Positions 2,425-60,926 of a stretch of DNA of 64,000 nt are shown piece after piece (position 1 is the first letter of the stretch; every line of letters starts with the position of its first letter). Under the pieces are notes generated by a model. It was given only the letters and a program-made list of their open reading frames with translations. It had not been told where the DNA came from and searched no databases. The translations under genes and the position numbers were made by a program. Source of the stretch: Escherichia coli (lineage in GTDB: Bacteria; Pseudomonadota; Gammaproteobacteria; Enterobacterales; Enterobacteriaceae); the NCBI RefSeq assembly GCF_003334255.1, contig NZ_QOWU01000008.1; one strand, 5' to 3'.

Positions 2425-4026
2425 ATGACTGAACAGGCAACAACAACCGATGAACTGGCTTTCACAAGGCCGTATGGCGAGCAGGAGAAGCAAATTCTTA
2501 CTGCCGAAGCGGTAGAATTTCTGACTGAGCTGGTGACGCATTTTACGCCACAACGCAATAAACTTCTGGCAGCGCGCATTCAGCAGCAGCAAGATATTGA
2601 TAACGGAACGTTGCCTGATTTTATTTCGGAAACAGCTTCCATTCGCTATGCTGATTGGAAAATTCGCGGGATTCCTGCGGACTTAGAAGACCGCCGCGTA
2701 GAGATAACTGGCCCGGTAGAGCGCAAGATGGTGATCAACGCGCTCAACGCCAATGTGAAAGTCTTTATGGCCGATTTCGAAGATTCACTGGCACCAGACT
2801 GGAACAAAGTGATCGACGGGCAAATTAACCTGCGTGATGCGGTTAACGGCACCATCAGTTACACCAATGAAGCAGGCAAAATTTACCAGCTCAAGCCCAA
2901 TCCAGCGGTTTTGATTTGTCGGGTACGCGGTCTGCACTTGCCGGAAAAACATGTCACCTGGCGTGGTGAGGCAATCCCCGGCAGCCTGTTTGATTTTGCG
3001 CTCTATTTCTTCCACAACTATCAGGCACTGTTGGCAAAGGGCAGTGGTCCCTATTTCTATCTGCCGAAAACCCAGTCCTGGCAGGAAGCGGCCTGGTGGA
3101 GCGAAGTCTTCAGCTATGCAGAAGATCGCTTTAATCTGCCGCGCGGCACCATCAAGGCGACGTTGCTGATTGAAACGCTGCCCGCCGTGTTCCAGATGGA
3201 TGAAATCCTTCACGCGCTGCGTGACCATATTGTTGGTCTGAACTGCGGTCGTTGGGATTACATCTTCAGCTATATCAAAACGTTGAAAAACTATCCCGAT
3301 CGCGTCCTGCCAGACAGACAGGCAGTGACGATGGATAAACCATTCCTGAATGCTTACTCACGCCTGTTGATTAAAACCTGCCATAAACGCGGTGCTTTTG
3401 CGATGGGCGGCATGGCGGCGTTTATTCCGAGCAAAGATGAAGAGCACAATAACCAGGTGCTCAACAAAGTAAAAGCGGATAAATCGCTGGAAGCCAATAA
3501 CGGTCACGATGGCACATGGATCGCTCACCCAGGCCTTGCGGACACGGCAATGGCGGTATTCAACGACATTCTCGGCTCCCGTAAAAATCAGCTTGAAGTG
3601 ATGCGCGAACAAGACGCGCCGATTACTGCCGATCAGCTGCTGGCACCTTGTGATGGTGAACGCACCGAAGAAGGTATGCGCGCCAACATTCGCGTGGCTG
3701 TGCAGTACATCGAAGCGTGGATCTCTGGCAACGGCTGTGTGCCGATTTATGGCCTGATGGAAGATGCGGCGACGGCTGAAATTTCCCGTACCTCGATCTG
3801 GCAGTGGATCCATCATCAAAAAACGTTGAGCAATGGCAAACCGGTGACCAAAGCCTTGTTCCGCCAGATGCTGGGCGAAGAGATGAAAGTCATTGCCAGC
3901 GAACTGGGCGAAGAACGTTTCTCCCAGGGGCGTTTTGACGATGCCGCACGCTTGATGGAACAGATCACCACTTCCGATGAGTTAATTGATTTCCTGACCC
4001 TGCCAGGCTACCGCCTGTTAGCGTAA
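2425..4026 (+). CDS. aceB: Malate synthase A (glyoxylate shunt)
   Basis: ORF 2407-4026 trimmed to ATG at 2425 ([20 protein letters not shown]...), 533 aa; recognised as AceB. Confidence 0.95.
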
Positions 4027-54067: not shown

Positions 54068-55261
54068 GTGTTTCAAAAAGTTGACGCCTACGCTGGCGAC
54101 CCGATTCTTACGCTTATGGAGCGTTTTAAAGAAGACCCTCGCAGCGACAAAGTGAATTTAAGTATCGGTCTGTACTACAACGAAGACGGAATTATTCCAC
54201 AACTGCAAGCCGTGGCGGAGGCGGAAGCGCGCCTGAATGCGCAGCCTCATGGCGCTTCGCTTTATTTACCGATGGAAGGGCTTAACTGCTATCGCCATGC
54301 CATTGCGCCGCTGCTGTTTGGTGCGGACCATCCGGTACTGAAACAACAGCGCGTAGCAACCATTCAAACCCTTGGCGGCTCCGGGGCATTGAAAGTGGGC
54401 GCGGATTTCCTGAAACGCTACTTCCCGGAATCAGGCGTCTGGGTCAGCGATCCTACCTGGGAAAACCACGTAGCAATATTCGCCGGGGCTGGATTCGAAG
54501 TGAGTACTTACCCCTGGTATGACGAAGCGACTAACGGCGTGCGCTTTAATGACCTGTTGGCGACGCTGAAAACATTACCTGCCCGCAGTATTGTGTTGCT
54601 GCATCCATGTTGCCACAACCCAACGGGTGCCGATCTCACTAATGATCAGTGGGATGCGGTGATTGAAATTCTCAAAGCCCGCGAGCTTATTCCATTCCTC
54701 GATATTGCCTATCAAGGATTTGGTGCCGGTATGGAAGAGGATGCCTACGCTATTCGCGCCATTGCCAGCGCTGGATTACCCGCTCTGGTGAGCAATTCGT
54801 TCTCGAAAATTTTCTCCCTTTACGGCGAGCGCGTCGGCGGACTTTCTGTTATGTGTGAAGATGCCGAAGCCGCTGGCCGCGTACTGGGGCAATTGAAAGC
54901 AACAGTTCGCCGCAACTACTCCAGCCCGCCGAATTTTGGTGCGCAGGTGGTGGCTGCAGTGCTGAATGACGAGGCATTGAAAGCCAGCTGGCTGGCGGAA
55001 GTAGAAGAGATGCGTACTCGCATTCTGGCAATGCGTCAGGAATTGGTGAAGGTATTAAGCACAGAGATGCCAGAACGCAATTTCGATTATCTGCTTAATC
55101 AGCGCGGCATGTTCAGTTATACCGGTTTAAGTGCCGCTCAGGTTGACCGACTACGTGAAGAATTTGGTGTCTATCTCATCGCCAGCGGTCGCATGTGTGT
55201 CGCCGGGTTAAATACGGCAAATGTACAACGTGTGGCAAAGGCGTTTGCTGCGGTGATGTAA
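54068..55261 (+). CDS. tyrB: Aromatic-amino-acid aminotransferase
   Basis: ORF 54026-55261 trimmed to GTG at 54068 ([25 protein letters not shown]), 397 aa. Confidence 0.95.
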
Positions 55262-55270
55262 TGCAGGAAA

Positions 55271-55294
55271 GCAGGCTGGAGCTACCCAGCCTGC
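55271..55294 (+). terminator. Putative hairpin terminator after tyrB
   Basis: Stem GCAGGCTGG / CCAGCCTGC 10 bp after the stop; weak downstream U-run. Confidence 0.4.
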
Positions 55295-55762
55295 AGTGAA
55301 ATTAAACTGTCGTCGCTTTCACTCTTTCTTTATAGATGATTTTTTTGATGCCATCGTTCTACGTGAGAGATAATAAACGTTGTTAGTTCTTTTATTGTTA
55401 AGCTTATCCCAATTATCTGGAATTCCTTATCCTGTTTTTTTGGGTGGAGTAATAATTTCTGCACATCTAACCATTATTAAATTTAATAATAAGTATCGGG
55501 TTTGTTACGATAGAATATTTCTATATCCTCAAGAATATGCTTTGCCTTATTGCCTGTGACTTTCTGAGATTCAATTATAGTATCGTTAAATTCTAATGTT
55601 AAAGAGAACTCTTTTTTCCGCTTTGTGTAAGTTTAACCTTATATTGATTACCAATATCAAATAAAAAGGTCCTGTAATGAGAATAATCACCTTTAACCTC
55701 CTCGGCAAAACAGCAAAGCGTGCAAATATACATAAAGTCTTTCTTACCCCTGATTTTGTTAA

Positions 55763-55966
55763 CTAAATCAATAAATGCGTGAAAAACTTTACTTGCAATA
55801 GAACTTGATACTTCTTCTCCAGGTCTAAAAAATCTTTTGCAATTTTTAACTGTGTTTCTATGTATAAAAAGAAATCTTTGGCATAAGAGATATCTTTATT
55901 ATTTAGTGCATCTAGCTCAACAGGTAAAGATGTCGTTTTGTTGCTATTCACATATGATATATTCAT
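55763..55966 (-). CDS. yjbS: Small uncharacterised protein YjbS
   Basis: 80 aa ORF (55763-56005) in an AT-rich (by eye) spacer, trimmed to the internal Met (MNISYVNSNK, 67 aa); identification is tentative. Confidence 0.45.
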   Translation of the reverse strand: MNISYVNSNKTTSLPVELDALNNKDISYAKDFFLYIETQLKIAKDFLDLEKKYQVLLQVKFFTHLLI

Positions 55967-56088
55967 ATCATCATCTCCATCGCGAGTAATAAAATTAATC
56001 ACCATTGTAGGGTAGGGGGCTGGTCAATCAGAAATCATCTTTATAAACTTCGATTGTTTTTGTAATGCTGTATCATTAAGTTCATTAA

Positions 56089-57081
<993 letters not shown>

Positions 57082-57086
57082 CAGAG

Positions 57087-57123
57087 CGGGAGAGCGTGAT
57101 GCTCTCCCGAATGCTGTTTTTTT
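57087..57123 (+). terminator. Rho-independent terminator after aphA
   Basis: Hairpin CGGGAGAGC-GTGAT-GCTCTCCCG followed after a short spacer by T8. Confidence 0.6.
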
Positions 57124-57191
57124 AATCACACCTTTATCCTTTCGCTGTCTTGCTGCAAACTGATTAAGAGAGTTTTATCAAGGAGCAGCAC

Positions 57192-57608
57192 ATGTGGTAT
57201 CAAAAGACGCTCACGCTTAGCGCCAAATCTCGTGGGTTTCATCTGGTAACGGATGAAATTCTGAATCAGCTGGCTGATATGCCGCGCGTTAACATCGGCT
57301 TACTGCATCTGTTGCTGCAACATACCTCCGCCTCTCTGACACTTAATGAGAACTGCGATCCCACCGTACGCCACGACATGGAGCGTTTTTTCCTCCGCAC
57401 CGTTCCCGACAACGGAAATTATGAGCATGACTATGAGGGAGCAGACGATATGCCTTCTCATATCAAATCCTCAATGCTGGGAACATCGCTTGTATTGCCG
57501 GTGCATAAAGGGCGTATTCAGACCGGCACCTGGCAAGGCATTTGGCTGGGGGAACATCGCATCCACGGCGGATCGCGTCGCATCATCGCGACACTACAAG
57601 GGGAGTAA
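57192..57608 (+). CDS. yjbQ: YjbQ (UPF0047 family)
   Basis: 138 aa ORF starting [24 protein letters not shown], recognised as YjbQ. Confidence 0.9.
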
Positions 57609-57611
57609 AAA

Positions 57612-57968
57612 ATGACCATTTCGGAGTTGCTACAATATTGCATGGCAAAACCAGGCGCAGAACAGAGCGTGCATAATGACTGGAAAGCGACGCAGATCAA
57701 AGTGGAAGATGTACTGTTTGCGATGGTGAAAGAAGTAGAAAATCGCCCAGCTGTTTCGCTGAAAACCAGCCCGGAGCTGGCGGAGCTGCTACGTCAGCAG
57801 CACAGCGATGTGCGTCCAAGCCGCCATCTGAATAAAGCGCACTGGAGCACCGTGTATCTCGACGGTTCGCTGCCAGATTCGCAAATCTATTATCTGGTGG
57901 ATGCGTCTTATCAGCAGGCGGTGAATTTACTGCCGGAAGAAAAACGTAAATTGCTGGTGCAACTCTGA
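57612..57968 (+). CDS. yjbR: YjbR (small conserved protein, unknown function)
   Basis: 118 aa ORF starting 3 bp after the yjbQ stop (translational coupling). Confidence 0.9.
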   Translation: MTISELLQYCMAKPGAEQSVHNDWKATQIKVEDVLFAMVKEVENRPAVSLKTSPELAELLRQQHSDVRPSRHLNKAHWSTVYLDGSLPDSQIYYLVDASYQQAVNLLPEEKRKLLVQL

Positions 57969-57974
57969 AAGGAA

Positions 57975-57997
57975 AAGGCCGCTCAGAAAGCGGCCTT
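57975..57997. terminator. Hairpin terminator between convergent yjbR (+) and uvrA (-)
   Basis: Stem AAGGCCGC / GCGGCCTT with 6-nt loop; the U-run lies on the minus strand, so it mainly serves uvrA. Confidence 0.65.
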
Positions 57998-58002
57998 AAC
58001 GA

Positions 58003-60825
58003 TTACAGCATCGGCTTAAGGAAGCGTGCCGTGTGTGATGCTTCGCACTCCGCGACGGTTTCTGGCGTACCGGAGACGAGGATCTCGCCGCCACCACTGC
58101 CGCCTTCTGGTCCCAGGTCGACAATCCAGTCAGCGGTTTTGATCACGTCGAGATTGTGCTCAATCACCACAATGGTGTTGCCCTGATCGCGCAGTTTATG
58201 CAGTACGTCGAGCAGTTGCTGAATATCGGCGAAGTGCAGACCGGTGGTCGGCTCGTCGAGAATATACAGCGTCTGCCCGGTGCCGCGTTTTGACAGTTCA
58301 CGCGCCAGCTTCACGCGCTGGGCTTCACCGCCTGAAAGGGTGGTTGCGGACTGCCCCAGTCGAATGTACGTCAGGCCAACGTCCATCAACGTTTGCAGCT
58401 TACGCGCCAGTGCAGGTACGGCATCAAAGAACTCACGCGCCTCTTCGATGGTCATATCCAGCACTTCGTGGATGGTTTTGCCTTTGTACTTAATCTCCAG
58501 CGTTTCACGGTTATAGCGTTTACCTTTGCACTGGTCGCACGGCACGTAGATATCCGGCAGGAAGTGCATCTCCACTTTGATCACGCCATCGCCCTGACAG
58601 GCCTCGCAGCGTCCGCCACGAACGTTAAAGCTGAAACGTCCCGGCGTATAGCCGCGCGCACGGGATTCCGGTACGCCCGCAAACAGTTCGCGCACAGGCG
58701 TAAACACGCCGGTATAGGTCGCCGGGTTAGAACGTGGAGTACGACCAATTGGGCTTTGGTCGATATCGATCACTTTATCGAAATGCTCCAGCCCCTGAAT
58801 ATCGCGATACGGTGCTGGTTCGGCGATGGTCGCCCCATTCAACTGGCGTTGGGCAATCGGGAACAGTGTGTCGTTAATCAGCGTCGATTTACCGGAACCT
58901 GAAACCCCGGTGATGCAGGTAAACAGACCCACCGGCAGCGTCAGCGTCACGTCCTTCAGGTTGTTGCCGCGTGCGCCTGTCAGCTTCAGCACTTTTTCCG
59001 GATTCGCCGGAACGCGTTTCTTCGGCACTTCAATCTTGCGTTTGCCGCTCATGTACTGCCCGGTCAACGACTCCGGCACCGCCATAATCGCTTCCAGCGG
59101 ACCTTCTGCGACCACTTCACCGCCGTGAACACCTGCGCCCGGGCCAATGTCGATCACATGGTCAGCGGCGCGAATTGCGTCTTCGTCGTGCTCCACCACA
59201 ATCACGGTATTACCGAGATCGCGCAGATGGATAAGCGTACCCAACAGGCGCTCGTTATCACGCTGGTGCAGGCCGATAGACGGCTCGTCCAGCACGTACA
59301 TAACGCCAACCAGGCCCGCACCAATCTGGCTCGCCAGACGGATACGCTGTGCTTCACCGCCAGAAAGCGTTTCTGCCGAGCGGGAAAGCGTCAGGTAATT
59401 CAGGCCGACGTTAACGAGGAATTTCAGACGATCGCCGATCTCTTTAAGGATTTTTTCTGCAATCTTCGCCCGCTGACCTGCGAGTTTGAGATTGTTGAAG
59501 AATTCCATCGCATGACCAATGCTCATGTCGGAGATAGCAGGCAGCGGCGTATTCTCGACATACACGTGGCGCGCTTCCCGACGCAGACGCGTCCCTTCGC
59601 AGCTGGCGCACGGACGATTACTGATAAACTTGGCTAATTCTTCGCGTACCGCGCTGGATTCCGTCTCTTTATAGCGGCGCTCCATATTATGCAGCACGCC
59701 TTCGAACGGATGACGACGAATGGAGGTATCGCCACGATCGTTCATGTATTTGAATTCAATGTTTTCTTTGCCAGAACCGTACAACACCACTTTATGCACG
59801 TTCGCGCTCAGGCTGCCCCACGGCGCTTCGACGTCGAACTTATAGTGATCTGCCAGCGATTTCAGCATCTGGAAATAATAGAAGTTGCGGCGATCCCAGC
59901 CACGGATCGCACCACCAGCCAGCGACAGTTCCGGATTCTGGATCACTCGATCAGGATCGAAATATTGCTGTACGCCAAGGCCGTCGCAGGTCGGGCAGGC
60001 CCCCGCCGGGTTGTTAAACGAAAACAGTCGCGGCTCCAGTTCACGCATACTGTAGCCGCAAATTGGGCAGGCGAAGTTGGCGGAGAACAGCAGCTCTTCC
60101 GCTTTCGGGTCGTCCATATCCGCCACTACCGCGGTACCACCGGAAAGCTCCAGCGCGGTTTCAAATGACTCGGCAAGACGTTGGGTAAGATCGTCACGCA
60201 CCTTGAAGCGATCAACCACCACTTCAATGGTATGTTTCTTTTGCAGTTCCAGTTTTGGCGGATCGGAAAGATCGCAGACTTCGCCATCAATACGAGCACG
60301 GATGTAGCCCTGGCTTGCCAGGTTCTCCAGCGTTTTGGTGTGTTCGCCTTTGCGCTCTTTAATGATTGGCGCGAGTAGCATCAGACGCTTGCCTTCCGGC
60401 TGCGACAGCACGTTATCCACCATCTGGCTGACGGTTTGCGCCGCCAGCGGGACGTCGTGGTCCGGACAGCGCGGCTCGCCAACGCGGGCGAATAACAAAC
60501 GCAAATAGTCGTGGATTTCGGTGATTGTCCCCACCGTAGAACGCGGGTTATGAGACGTCGATTTCTGCTCAATTGAGATGGCAGGAGAAAGCCCCTCAAT
60601 ATGATCGACGTCCGGCTTTTCCATCAGTGACAGAAACTGCCGCGCGTAGGCGGAAAGGGATTCAACGTAACGGCGCTGCCCTTCGGCATATAAGGTGTCG
60701 AAAGCGAGCGAGGATTTGCCAGAACCCGAAAGCCCGGTCACGACAATGAGCTTGTCGCGGGGGATAACGAGGTTGATGTTTTTGAGATTATGGGTGCGGG
60801 CGCCCCGAACTTCGATCTTATCCAT
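58003..60825 (-). CDS. uvrA: Excinuclease ABC subunit A
   Basis: 940 aa ORF starting [53 protein letters not shown]; two ABC ATPase modules and zinc-finger cysteines. Confidence 0.95.
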
Positions 60826-60910: not shown

Positions 60911-60926
60911 CTGAATGAATATACAG
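60911..60926. promoter_or_regulatory. LexA operator (SOS box) shared by divergent uvrA and ssb promoters
   Basis: CTGAATGAATATACAG (complement CTGTATATTCATTCAG) matches CTGT-N8-ACAG, 85 bp upstream of uvrA and about 150 bp upstream of ssb. Confidence 0.85.

What the first reader, a model, noticed from the sequence alone, without database searches (positions are those of the whole stretch)
57192..57968. yjbQ-yjbR translationally coupled pair of unknown physiological role
Two conserved small proteins are separated by only 3 bp (stop TAA at 57606-57608, ATG at 57612) and terminate at a hairpin shared with convergent uvrA. Their genuine physiological role is unclear to me.
Basis: partly seen in the sequence, partly recalled or inferred. 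Interest (0 to 1): 0.3.

Follow-up and report, generated by a model that had tools for sequence, protein, structure and literature searches.

The report
E. coli yjbQ-yjbR two-gene operon
This is the already annotated E. coli gene pair yjbQ-yjbR; the two genes sit side by side only in E. coli and its close relatives, and what they do in the cell is still unknown.

Summary
yjbQ is 57192-57608 with stop TAA at 57606-57608. Three bases (AAA) follow, then yjbR at 57612-57968. A GC-rich hairpin (57975-57997) lies between yjbR and the end of convergent uvrA. The window is E. coli K-12-like, and all 5426 complete E. coli genomes carry the stretch with these annotations.

YjbQ is a clear UPF0047/TIGR00149 member. 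YjbR is identical to PDB 2FKI (PF04237).

- **Co-conservation is narrow.** Among 80 diverse genomes with a YjbQ homologue, a YjbR-family gene lies within 3 kb in 5 of 6 Enterobacterales and 0 of 74 others.
- **Other partners exist.** Pseudomonads carry sutA downstream of yjbQ instead.
- **The pair decouples.** One Enterobacterales genome has yjbQ alone, another has yjbR alone, and the E. coli paralogue ybdF sits elsewhere.
- **Coupling is plausible but not obligatory.** yjbR has its own Shine-Dalgarno sequence, no structure hides it, one genus has a 111-nt spacer, and published data show a processed yjbR mRNA on polysomes.
- **The hairpin favours uvrA.** Its U-tract is on the uvrA strand only.
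- **Structure search gives no function.** YjbQ matches only its own uncharacterised family. YjbR resembles DNA-binding MotA about as well as frataxin-like YdhG.

Verdict: real, ordinary and already known. It is a clade-specific operon, and the biochemistry remains unresolved.

The parts
57087..57109 (+). Intrinsic terminator hairpin of the upstream gene aphA, followed by a T-run. It marks the upstream limit of the yjbQR unit.
   Evidence: The terminator scan found 10 pairs, 7 of them GC.
57148..57161 (+). Conserved block TCTTGCTGCAAACT in the aphA-yjbQ spacer. It is a candidate promoter or operator element for yjbQR. This is an inference; no consensus sigma-70 promoter was found on this strand.
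   Evidence: The upstream regions of five genera were aligned. The invariant columns cluster here and at the Shine-Dalgarno sequence. The promoter scan found no plus-strand site in 56900-58200.
57180..57185 (+). Shine-Dalgarno sequence AAGGAG of yjbQ, 6 nt before the ATG.
   Evidence: Read from the sequence. GGAGCA is invariant in five genera.
57192..57608 (+). yjbQ, 138 aa, of the UPF0047/YjbQ family. Annotated as 'secondary thiamine-phosphate synthase enzyme'.
57596..57598 (+). ACA triplet 16 nt upstream of the yjbR AUG, inside yjbQ. It matches the published MazF cleavage position for yjbR.
   Evidence: Table 1 of PMC5001579 lists yjbR with a cleaved ACA 16 nt from the start. The position was read.
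57600..57605 (+). Shine-Dalgarno sequence GGGGAG of yjbR, embedded in the last two sense codons of yjbQ and 6 nt before the yjbR ATG.
   Evidence: Read from the sequence. The equivalent GGGGA(A/G) or GGAGA is kept in E. albertii, E. cloacae, Superficieibacter and Acerihabitans.
57609..57611 (+). 3-nt intercistronic spacer AAA. yjbQ and yjbR are in the same frame.
   Evidence: The 51-nt junction is identical in 4342 complete E. coli genomes and has one mismatch in 667.
57612..57968 (+). yjbR, 118 aa, of the MmcQ/YjbR family (PF04237, formerly DUF419). It has the 'double-wing' alpha/beta fold.
57975..57997 (.). GC-rich hairpin in the 34-nt gap between the yjbR stop and the uvrA stop. It is a canonical terminator for uvrA (U-tract on the minus strand). 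On the plus strand it has a stem only, preceded by an A-rich stretch.
   Evidence: It is kept in E. albertii but absent in Enterobacter cloacae, where the uvrA stop lies 3 nt after the yjbR stop.
58003..60825 (-). uvrA, the convergent neighbour. It gives context only and is not part of the operon.
   Evidence: ORF list and RefSeq annotation.

Best explanation
yjbQ-yjbR is a two-gene operon specific to Enterobacterales. It links an ancient, widely distributed enzyme-like protein to a newer small protein. The two are not an obligate functional pair.

**Shown.**
- The two genes are on the same strand and 3 nt apart.
- No terminator-like or promoter-like site lies between them.
- Each gene has a good Shine-Dalgarno sequence.
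- Both are under purifying selection.
- The order tyrB-(aphA)-yjbQ-yjbR-uvrA, with a 2-3 nt junction, is kept in Enterobacteriaceae, Mixta and the Sodalis/Acerihabitans group.

**Inferred.**
- Transcription starts in the 82-nt stretch between the aphA terminator and yjbQ. That stretch holds a conserved block but no consensus sigma-70 promoter. Published work reports regulation of the pair by GadE/GadX.
- Ribosomes finishing yjbQ can re-initiate at yjbR 3 nt on. yjbR can also be initiated independently from its own Shine-Dalgarno sequence.
- The transcript ends at, or is stabilised by, the hairpin that mainly terminates uvrA.
- YjbQ is most likely a trimeric, metal-dependent enzyme acting on a small phosphorylated metabolite. 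Its invariant residues are His44, Glu53, Asp62, His79, Glu82, Asp85, Asp86 and His90. Its thiamin-phosphate synthase and pdxB-bypass activities are promiscuous side reactions.
- YjbR is a small acidic alpha/beta 'double-wing' protein that binds a macromolecular or small ligand. DNA is the usual prediction and is untested.
- yjbR was probably placed between yjbQ and uvrA in an ancestor of Enterobacterales. yjbQ already lay near dnaB-alr, where it still sits in Vibrio and Alteromonadales.
For: **Anatomy.**

**Family membership.**

**Species-wide presence.**

**Purifying selection.**

**Conserved junction and synteny in Enterobacterales.**

**No YjbR-family ORF within 3 kb of yjbQ in 74 of 74 non-Enterobacterales loci.** I used phmmer, a three-sequence family HMM and the HxNKxHW motif.

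**Different downstream partners elsewhere.**
- sutA follows yjbQ in 12 Pseudomonas/Stutzerimonas loci and in L090. This agrees with bioRxiv 10.64898/2026.06.26.734693.
- yjbQ is convergent with alr in Vibrio and Pseudoalteromonas.

**Decoupling inside Enterobacterales.**
- L006 has yjbQ, then a LysR gene, then uvrA, without yjbR.
- L088 has tyrB, a terminator-like hairpin and yjbR, without yjbQ.

**E. coli paralogue.** ybdF lies at ybdK-ybdJ-ybdF-nfsB, with no yjbQ neighbour.

**YjbQ biochemistry.**
- Invariant His/Asp/Glu set.
- The trimer idea is supported indirectly by natural triple-tandem YjbQ proteins of 417-473 aa.
- Promiscuous activities come from the literature: PMC3010111 and PMC11551756.

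**Co-transcription, indirect evidence.** RNA spanning the yjbQ 3' end and yjbR is cut by MazF at an ACA inside yjbQ (PMC5001579). The two genes are treated together as GadE/GadX targets (PMC4918353).
Against: - No direct transcript map, Northern blot or coupling assay was available to me, so the operon and the coupling are inferred.
- No consensus promoter was found upstream of yjbQ, so read-through from aphA is not excluded.
- The tight 2-3 nt junction, kept across at least three Enterobacterales lineages, is more conservation than a purely accidental neighbour would need. It leaves room for a real functional link in this clade.
- The comparative sample is 80 loci, all at least 50% identical to E. 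coli YjbQ. It holds no archaea or Firmicutes and tests only adjacency within 3 kb. Genome-wide co-occurrence was not tested.
- Metal dependence and the trimer are not shown here for the E. coli protein.
Confidence: 0.62

Rival explanations
1. The two proteins form a true functional module in Enterobacterales. YjbR would act directly on or with YjbQ, for example as a metal or ligand chaperone or as a regulatory subunit. The tight junction would exist to keep their amounts matched.
For: - The order and the 2-3 nt spacing are conserved in 8 of 9 pair-bearing contexts across several families.
- Both genes are under purifying selection.
- YjbQ has an invariant His/Asp/Glu set suggestive of a metal site.
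- YjbR orthologues are acidic, with pI 4.8-6.1.
Against: - There is no adjacency in 74 of 74 other loci.
- yjbQ occurs alone in L006 and yjbR alone in L088.
- Enterobacter sp. Bisph1 has a 111-nt spacer.
- YjbQ homologues from organisms without the pair were reported to show the same thiamin-phosphate synthase activity (Morett 2008; my recollection of the paper, which I did not read here).
- No true fusion protein was seen. The one apparent fusion, P0123, is a frameshift artefact.
Confidence: 0.2
2. YjbR is a sequence-specific DNA-binding transcription factor. It would autoregulate yjbQR or control other genes, using the MotA-like 'double-wing' surface.
For: - The published prediction (Singarapu 2007, via PMC7641849; PMC3424535).
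- A conserved non-coding block upstream of yjbQ could be an operator.
- In Pseudomonas the gene in the same position, sutA, encodes a transcription regulator.
Against: - DNA binding has never been shown in any paper I could find.
- The orthologues are acidic.
- The conserved block is not a palindrome.
- The fold equally matches non-DNA-binding frataxin/YdhG and TfoX-N-like proteins.
Confidence: 0.12
3. The pair belongs functionally to the neighbouring DNA-repair and replication cluster (uvrA, ssb, dnaB). For example, YjbR could recognise damaged or modified DNA.
For: - yjbR-uvrA adjacency is kept in most Enterobacterales loci.
- The family name MmcQ comes from a mitomycin gene cluster (my own knowledge).
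- YjbR domains are fused to EVE modified-base readers and to nucleases in other bacteria (PMC7641849).
Against: - The orientation to uvrA is convergent, so they do not share a transcript.
- No LexA box with one mismatch or fewer lies upstream of yjbQ, whereas the uvrA-ssb spacer has one at 60911.
- In Mixta an alcohol dehydrogenase gene separates yjbR from uvrA.
- In L088 yjbR is not next to uvrA.
- Neither protein matched PADLOC defence models.
Confidence: 0.05

Closest known systems
E. coli K-12 yjbQ (b4056) and yjbR, as annotated in RefSeq
   Same: The sequence is 100% identical over 57000-58100 to MG1655 and many other strains. Gene boundaries and neighbours are the same: aphA upstream and uvrA convergent.
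   Different: Nothing differs. This is the same locus.
UPF0047 / YjbQ family (PF01894, TIGR00149); solved members 1VMJ, 1VE0, 1VPH, 2P6H, 2CU5, 2P6C and others
MmcQ/YjbR family (PF04237, DUF419); PDB 2FKI, 2A1V (DR2400), 2KFP/3H9X (PSPTO_3016); E. coli paralogue YbdF
   Same: Identical to 2FKI. It carries the family core motif P-x-x-H-L-N-K-x-H-W-x-T-V.
   Different: The YjbR orthologue group next to yjbQ is confined to Enterobacterales, with 355 close clusters and 12 around Sodalis/Acerihabitans. It scores far below the cutoff of the YbdF-type NCBIfam model: 43.8 bits against 183. YbdF is basic (pI 8.7) and YjbR is acidic (pI 6.1).
Pseudomonas yjbQ-sutA bicistronic unit
   Same: yjbQ comes first and a small (81-107 aa) transcription-associated protein gene follows on the same strand. 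Co-transcription there is shown by northern blot and RT-PCR (bioRxiv 10.64898/2026.06.26.734693).
   Different: The downstream gene is unrelated: SutA is an RNA-polymerase-binding protein, not PF04237. The spacer is about 100 nt and holds its own promoter, against 3 nt here.
T4 MotA C-terminal 'double-wing' domain, and frataxin-like YdhG/CyaY
   Different: There is no detectable sequence similarity. The two comparators do different things (DNA binding against iron handling), so the resemblance does not fix a function.

Membership tests
UPF0047 / YjbQ (PF01894, TIGR00149) | Full-length match to the family profiles above their thresholds | tested here: met
   PF01894 E 2.6e-36 over residues 19-134. 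TIGR00149 scores 180.3 bits against a cutoff of 67.75.
UPF0047 / YjbQ (PF01894, TIGR00149) | Conserved motif residues (HTS...NEN...D; H..EG.DDMP.H; G.WQ) | tested here: met
   In a 27-sequence alignment at 42-64% identity, H44, T45, E53, D62, H79, E82, G83, D85, D86 and H90 are invariant. W114 and Q115 are at least 90% conserved.
UPF0047 / YjbQ (PF01894, TIGR00149) | YjbQ-like fold as in the solved members | tested here: met
UPF0047 / YjbQ (PF01894, TIGR00149) | Homotrimer with the active site between subunits | not testable with these tools
   Support is indirect only: natural proteins with three tandem YjbQ domains exist. No multimer prediction tool was available.
UPF0047 / YjbQ (PF01894, TIGR00149) | Weak thiamin-phosphate synthase activity (the basis of the product name) | not testable with these tools
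   From the literature only: Morett 2008, as cited in PMC3010111 and PMC11551756.
MmcQ/YjbR (PF04237) | Profile match and core motif | tested here: met
   PF04237 E 2.9e-21. HLNKAHW is present and aligns to 2a1v and 2kfp.
MmcQ/YjbR (PF04237) | 'Double-wing' alpha/beta fold | tested here: met
MmcQ/YjbR (PF04237) | DNA binding (as in the product name) | not testable with these tools
   No experiment was found in the literature. The acidic pI and the equal similarity to frataxin-like proteins leave it open.
Translationally coupled bicistronic operon | Same strand, a gap of a few nucleotides or an overlap, and the downstream Shine-Dalgarno sequence inside the upstream ORF | tested here: met
   A 3-nt gap, with GGGGAG at 57600-57605.
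Translationally coupled bicistronic operon | No terminator or promoter between the genes | tested here: met
   There is no plus-strand terminator-like or promoter-like site within 57192-57968. This is a consensus scan only.
Translationally coupled bicistronic operon | Junction conserved in relatives | tested here: met
   Spacing is 2-3 nt in 8 of 9 pair-bearing contexts. The one exception has 111 nt.
Translationally coupled bicistronic operon | Translation of the downstream gene depends on translation of the upstream gene | tested here: inconclusive
   No structure masks the yjbR ribosome-binding site (z -0.13). A MazF-processed yjbR mRNA with a 16-nt leader is polysome-bound (PMC5001579). Both point to possible independent initiation. 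No direct assay exists.
Bidirectional intrinsic terminator shared by convergent genes | GC-rich hairpin flanked by an A-tract upstream and a U-tract downstream, so that both strands see a stem followed by Us | tested here: not met
   The stem is present and stable on both strands. The U-rich tail follows only on the uvrA strand; on the yjbR strand the tail is AACGAUUAC. The hairpin is absent in Enterobacter cloacae.

The most novel reading that the evidence does not exclude
In different gammaproteobacterial clades, yjbQ has repeatedly acquired a small downstream gene for a transcription-associated protein. That gene is sutA in pseudomonads and in L090, and yjbR in Enterobacterales. YjbR might therefore not be a classical DNA-binding protein. 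It could be a small acidic factor acting on the transcription machinery, or a frataxin/YdhG-like ligand or metal carrier, whose production is tied to the YjbQ enzyme. If so, the widespread 'DNA-binding protein' label would be wrong, and YjbQ would be linked to a stationary-phase or nutrient-limitation programme.
Probability: 0.07. Interest if true: 0.5.

Novelty: already known. Interest (0 to 1): 0.15.

Why it matters
The practical value is modest. The locus is a textbook-annotated part of the E. coli chromosome, and nothing about its anatomy is unusual.

Four points may help people working on these 'y-genes':
- Neighbourhood cannot be used as evidence that the YjbQ and YjbR families work together, because the pairing is confined to Enterobacterales.
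- The 'DNA-binding' product name of YjbR rests on fold resemblance alone. That resemblance is no stronger than the one to frataxin-like proteins.
- The YjbQ fold has no characterised structural relatives, so its native reaction will have to come from biochemistry, not from modelling.
- YjbQ is one of the more widespread protein families still lacking a native function. That is the only real open question here.

Tried and rejected
- **Fusion ('Rosetta stone') evidence.** One database cluster, P0123, carries both Pfam domains. Its sequence shows a frameshifted read-through of this same junction, so I rejected it as an artefact. P0008 (TetR_N + YjbQ, on a 1.1-kb contig) looks chimeric too.
- **Guilt by association.** I clustered all neighbours of yjbQ in 80 loci. 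The recurrent neighbours were only lineage synteny (dnaB-alr, amtB, sutA, pgi), with no cross-phylum partner.
- **Structure-based function prediction.** YjbQ matches only its own uncharacterised family. For YjbR the hits are ambiguous, and the model was mediocre because the alignment was shallow.
- **SOS link.** There is no LexA box upstream of yjbQ.
- **Known RNA elements.** Rfam gave no match in 55000-58200 at E up to 1.
- **Anti-phage defence link.** Neither protein matched PADLOC.
- **RNA structure hiding the yjbR ribosome-binding site.** None was found.
- **Reaching distant YjbR orthologues.** A protein search with the Acerihabitans sequence returned only 12 clusters, because of word-index sensitivity. 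The YjbR-side survey is therefore thin.
- **Literature searches.** 'yjbQR', UPF0047 and DUF419/MmcQ/PF04237 gave no functional study beyond those cited.
- **A wasted call.** My first guess at the ybdF coordinates in the MG1655 record was wrong and was corrected.

Full report
**1. Observation.**
The window around the finding is ordinary E. coli chromosome.
- The stretch 57000-58100 is 100% identical to MG1655 and many other strains. It is present in 5426 of 5426 complete E. coli genomes, annotated aphA, yjbQ, yjbR and uvrA.
yjbQ is 57192-57608 (138 aa, TAA at 57606-57608). AAA follows at 57609-57611. yjbR is 57612-57968 (118 aa).
- The two genes share a reading frame.
- AAGGAG precedes yjbQ by 6 nt. 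GGGGAG, formed by the last two sense codons of yjbQ, precedes the yjbR ATG by 6 nt.
- uvrA (58003-60825, minus strand) ends 34 nt after yjbR.
- A 10-bp GC-rich hairpin at 57975-57997 lies in that gap. It is stable on both strands: -17 kcal/mol (z -3.96) and -19.9 kcal/mol (z -3.57).
- Both ORFs evolve like proteins. Third-position changes dominate in comparisons with four other genera.

**2. What the proteins are.**
*YjbQ.*
- It matches PF01894 (E 2.6e-36) and the NCBIfam model TIGR00149 (180 bits against a cutoff of 68).
- Nine relatives have solved structures, all deposited as hypothetical proteins.
- An exhaustive profile scan found 4457 clusters at 50% identity.
- An alignment of 27 diverse members shows an invariant set: H44, T45, E53, D62, H79, E82, G83, D85, D86 and H90. 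I read this as a probable metal or catalytic site. That is an inference.
- Several relatives are single chains with three tandem YjbQ domains, for example P0241 at 473 aa. This fits the trimer I recall from the crystal structures, which I did not verify here.

*YjbR.*
- It matches PF04237 and is identical to the NMR structure 2FKI.
- The YjbR orthologues are acidic, with pI 4.8-6.1, while the E. coli paralogue YbdF is basic.
- The 'DNA-binding' product name therefore rests on a fold resemblance that is no stronger than the resemblance to iron-handling proteins.

**3. Literature.**
- YjbQ has a weak thiamin-phosphate synthase side activity. Overexpression rescues strains lacking thiE (Morett 2008, cited in PMC3010111 and PMC11551756).
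- Overexpressed yjbQ also rescues a pdxB deletion through an unidentified bypass. The authors list its function as unknown (PMC3010111).
- yjbQ and yjbR are reported together as GadE/GadX-regulated genes, and knockouts of both were reported as not directly related to glutamate-dependent acid resistance (PMC4918353).
- YjbR's 'double-wing' DNA-binding prediction comes from Singarapu 2007 (via PMC7641849 and PMC3424535).
- MazF cleaves an ACA 16 nt upstream of the yjbR start. That is 57596-57598, inside yjbQ. The processed mRNA is polysome-associated (PMC5001579).
- No paper gives a physiological role.

**4.
I used a diverse YjbQ alignment to fetch 80 loci from one-genome-per-species contigs. 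Six were Enterobacterales. The other 74 included Pseudomonas, Vibrio, Shewanella, Colwellia, Halomonas, Bacteroidota, Chloroflexota, Planctomycetota and Acidobacteriota. I searched all six-frame ORFs within 3 kb in three ways: phmmer with YjbR, a small family HMM built from YjbR, 2a1v and 2kfp, and the core motif.

*Main result.* A YjbR-family ORF was found in 5 of 6 Enterobacterales loci and 0 of 74 others.

*Contexts inside Enterobacterales.* Extra look-ups added Mixta, two Sodalis-group genomes and one unidentified relative.
- The block tyrB-(aphA)-yjbQ-yjbR-uvrA with a 2-3 nt junction is kept in E. coli, E. albertii, Enterobacter cloacae, Superficieibacter, Acerihabitans, Mixta and both Sodalis-group genomes.
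- Enterobacter sp. Bisph1 has a 111-nt spacer and a separate AAGGAG-GTG start.
- L006 has yjbQ and uvrA, but a LysR gene in place of yjbR.
- L088 has tyrB, a terminator-like hairpin and yjbR, with no yjbQ.

*Contexts outside Enterobacterales.*
- Twelve Pseudomonas/Stutzerimonas loci and one other gammaproteobacterium carry sutA directly downstream. A recent preprint shows yjbQ and sutA to be co-transcribed.
- In Vibrio and Pseudoalteromonas, yjbQ is convergent with alr.
- Clustering all neighbours revealed only lineage synteny and no cross-phylum partner.

*E. coli paralogue.* ybdF sits between ybdJ and nfsB.

*Conclusion.* yjbQ is the older resident of this chromosomal neighbourhood, and yjbR is an addition specific to Enterobacterales. 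At family level the two are not co-conserved neighbours.

**5. Co-transcription and coupling.**
- No terminator-like or promoter-like site lies on the plus strand within or between the genes. A 3-nt gap leaves no room for one.
- The MazF data imply RNA continuous across the junction.
- The geometry is what one expects for translational coupling. Three results show that coupling need not be obligatory: the junction RNA is unstructured (z -0.13), yjbR has a strong Shine-Dalgarno sequence of its own, and the processed yjbR mRNA is translated.
- Upstream, the scan found no consensus sigma-70 promoter. A 14-nt block at 57148-57161 and the Shine-Dalgarno sequence are the only conserved parts of the aphA-yjbQ spacer across five genera.
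- Downstream, the hairpin has a U-rich tail only on the uvrA strand. It is missing in Enterobacter cloacae, where the two stop codons are 3 nt apart. I therefore describe it as the uvrA terminator. At most it acts as a weak stop or a 3'-end stabiliser for yjbQR.

**6. Other checks.**
- There is no LexA box upstream of yjbQ. The expected box is present in the uvrA-ssb spacer.
- Rfam gave no match.
- PADLOC gave no match.
- An apparent YjbQ-YjbR fusion cluster is a frameshift artefact.

**7. Verdict.**
The feature is real and correctly described, and it is already known. The most likely reading (confidence about 0.6) is a clade-specific bicistronic operon. It joins a widespread enzyme-like protein of unknown native reaction to a small double-wing protein of unknown ligand, without an obligate functional bond.

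The main rival is a genuine YjbQ-YjbR module within Enterobacterales. The conserved tight junction keeps it alive, at about 0.2.

**Limits of this work.**
- The comparative sample is 80 loci of fairly close YjbQ relatives.
- Only adjacency was tested.
- The YjbR-side survey is thin.
- No transcript or interaction data could be generated.

Noticed in passing
P0241, P0243, P0244, P0247, P0258, P0263, P0290, P0316, P0341; P0346 has four stretches: These are proteins of 395-473 aa made of three tandem YjbQ domains, plus one of 565 aa with four. They look like covalent versions of the presumed YjbQ trimer. In P0241 the first repeat has lost part of the DDMP/H motif, which hints at asymmetric active sites.
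   Followed up: partly
window 57148-57161: The block TCTTGCTGCA(A/C)ACT is invariant or nearly so upstream of yjbQ in Escherichia, Enterobacter, Superficieibacter and Enterobacter sp. Bisph1. The rest of the spacer diverges. It could be a non-consensus promoter (possibly a stationary-phase type -10 such as CAAACT) or a regulator site. The consensus scan did not detect it.
   Followed up: partly
L007, L009, L014, L016, L020, L024, L028, L030, L032, L034, L036, L037 (about 3430-3850) and L090 3119-3364: In pseudomonads and one other gammaproteobacterium, the gene directly downstream of yjbQ is sutA, which encodes an RNA-polymerase-binding regulator. In two clades, then, a small transcription-associated gene has been attached behind yjbQ.
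   Followed up: partly
L088 1309-1662 and 1667-2206 (minus strand): In an unidentified enterobacterial contig, yjbR lacks yjbQ and is convergent with a PPOX-type FMN flavoprotein of the 'DR2398' family. The solved YjbR homologue 2A1V is Deinococcus DR2400, two locus tags away from DR2398. This may be a recurring YjbR-PPOX neighbourhood.
   Followed up: no
window 55350-56250: A stretch of about 900 bp at roughly 30% GC lies between tyrB and aphA, against about 50% in the flanks. It contains the small annotated ORF yjbS (minus strand, within the 55763-56005 ORF). It is compositionally foreign-looking. aphA and this stretch are absent from the Mixta and Sodalis-group versions of the locus, where tyrB is followed directly by yjbQ.
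   Followed up: partly
L001 about 3800-3860: In E. albertii a REP-like palindromic element (gcctgatgcgctacgcttatcaggcctgcg) has been inserted after the yjbR/uvrA hairpin. The convergent gap is therefore variable even within the genus.
   Followed up: no
window 57192-57968: yjbQ and yjbR are in the same reading frame, separated by TAA AAA. A single stop-codon change would give an in-frame YjbQ-Lys-YjbR fusion. No genuine example was seen among the database hits.
   Followed up: partly
window 57612-57965 against NCBIfam NF007603: The only NCBIfam hit for YjbR is the YbdF-type equivalog model, at 43.8 bits against a cutoff of 183. NCBIfam therefore returned no above-cutoff model for this orthologue group, and the RefSeq product name is a family-level one.
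   Followed up: no
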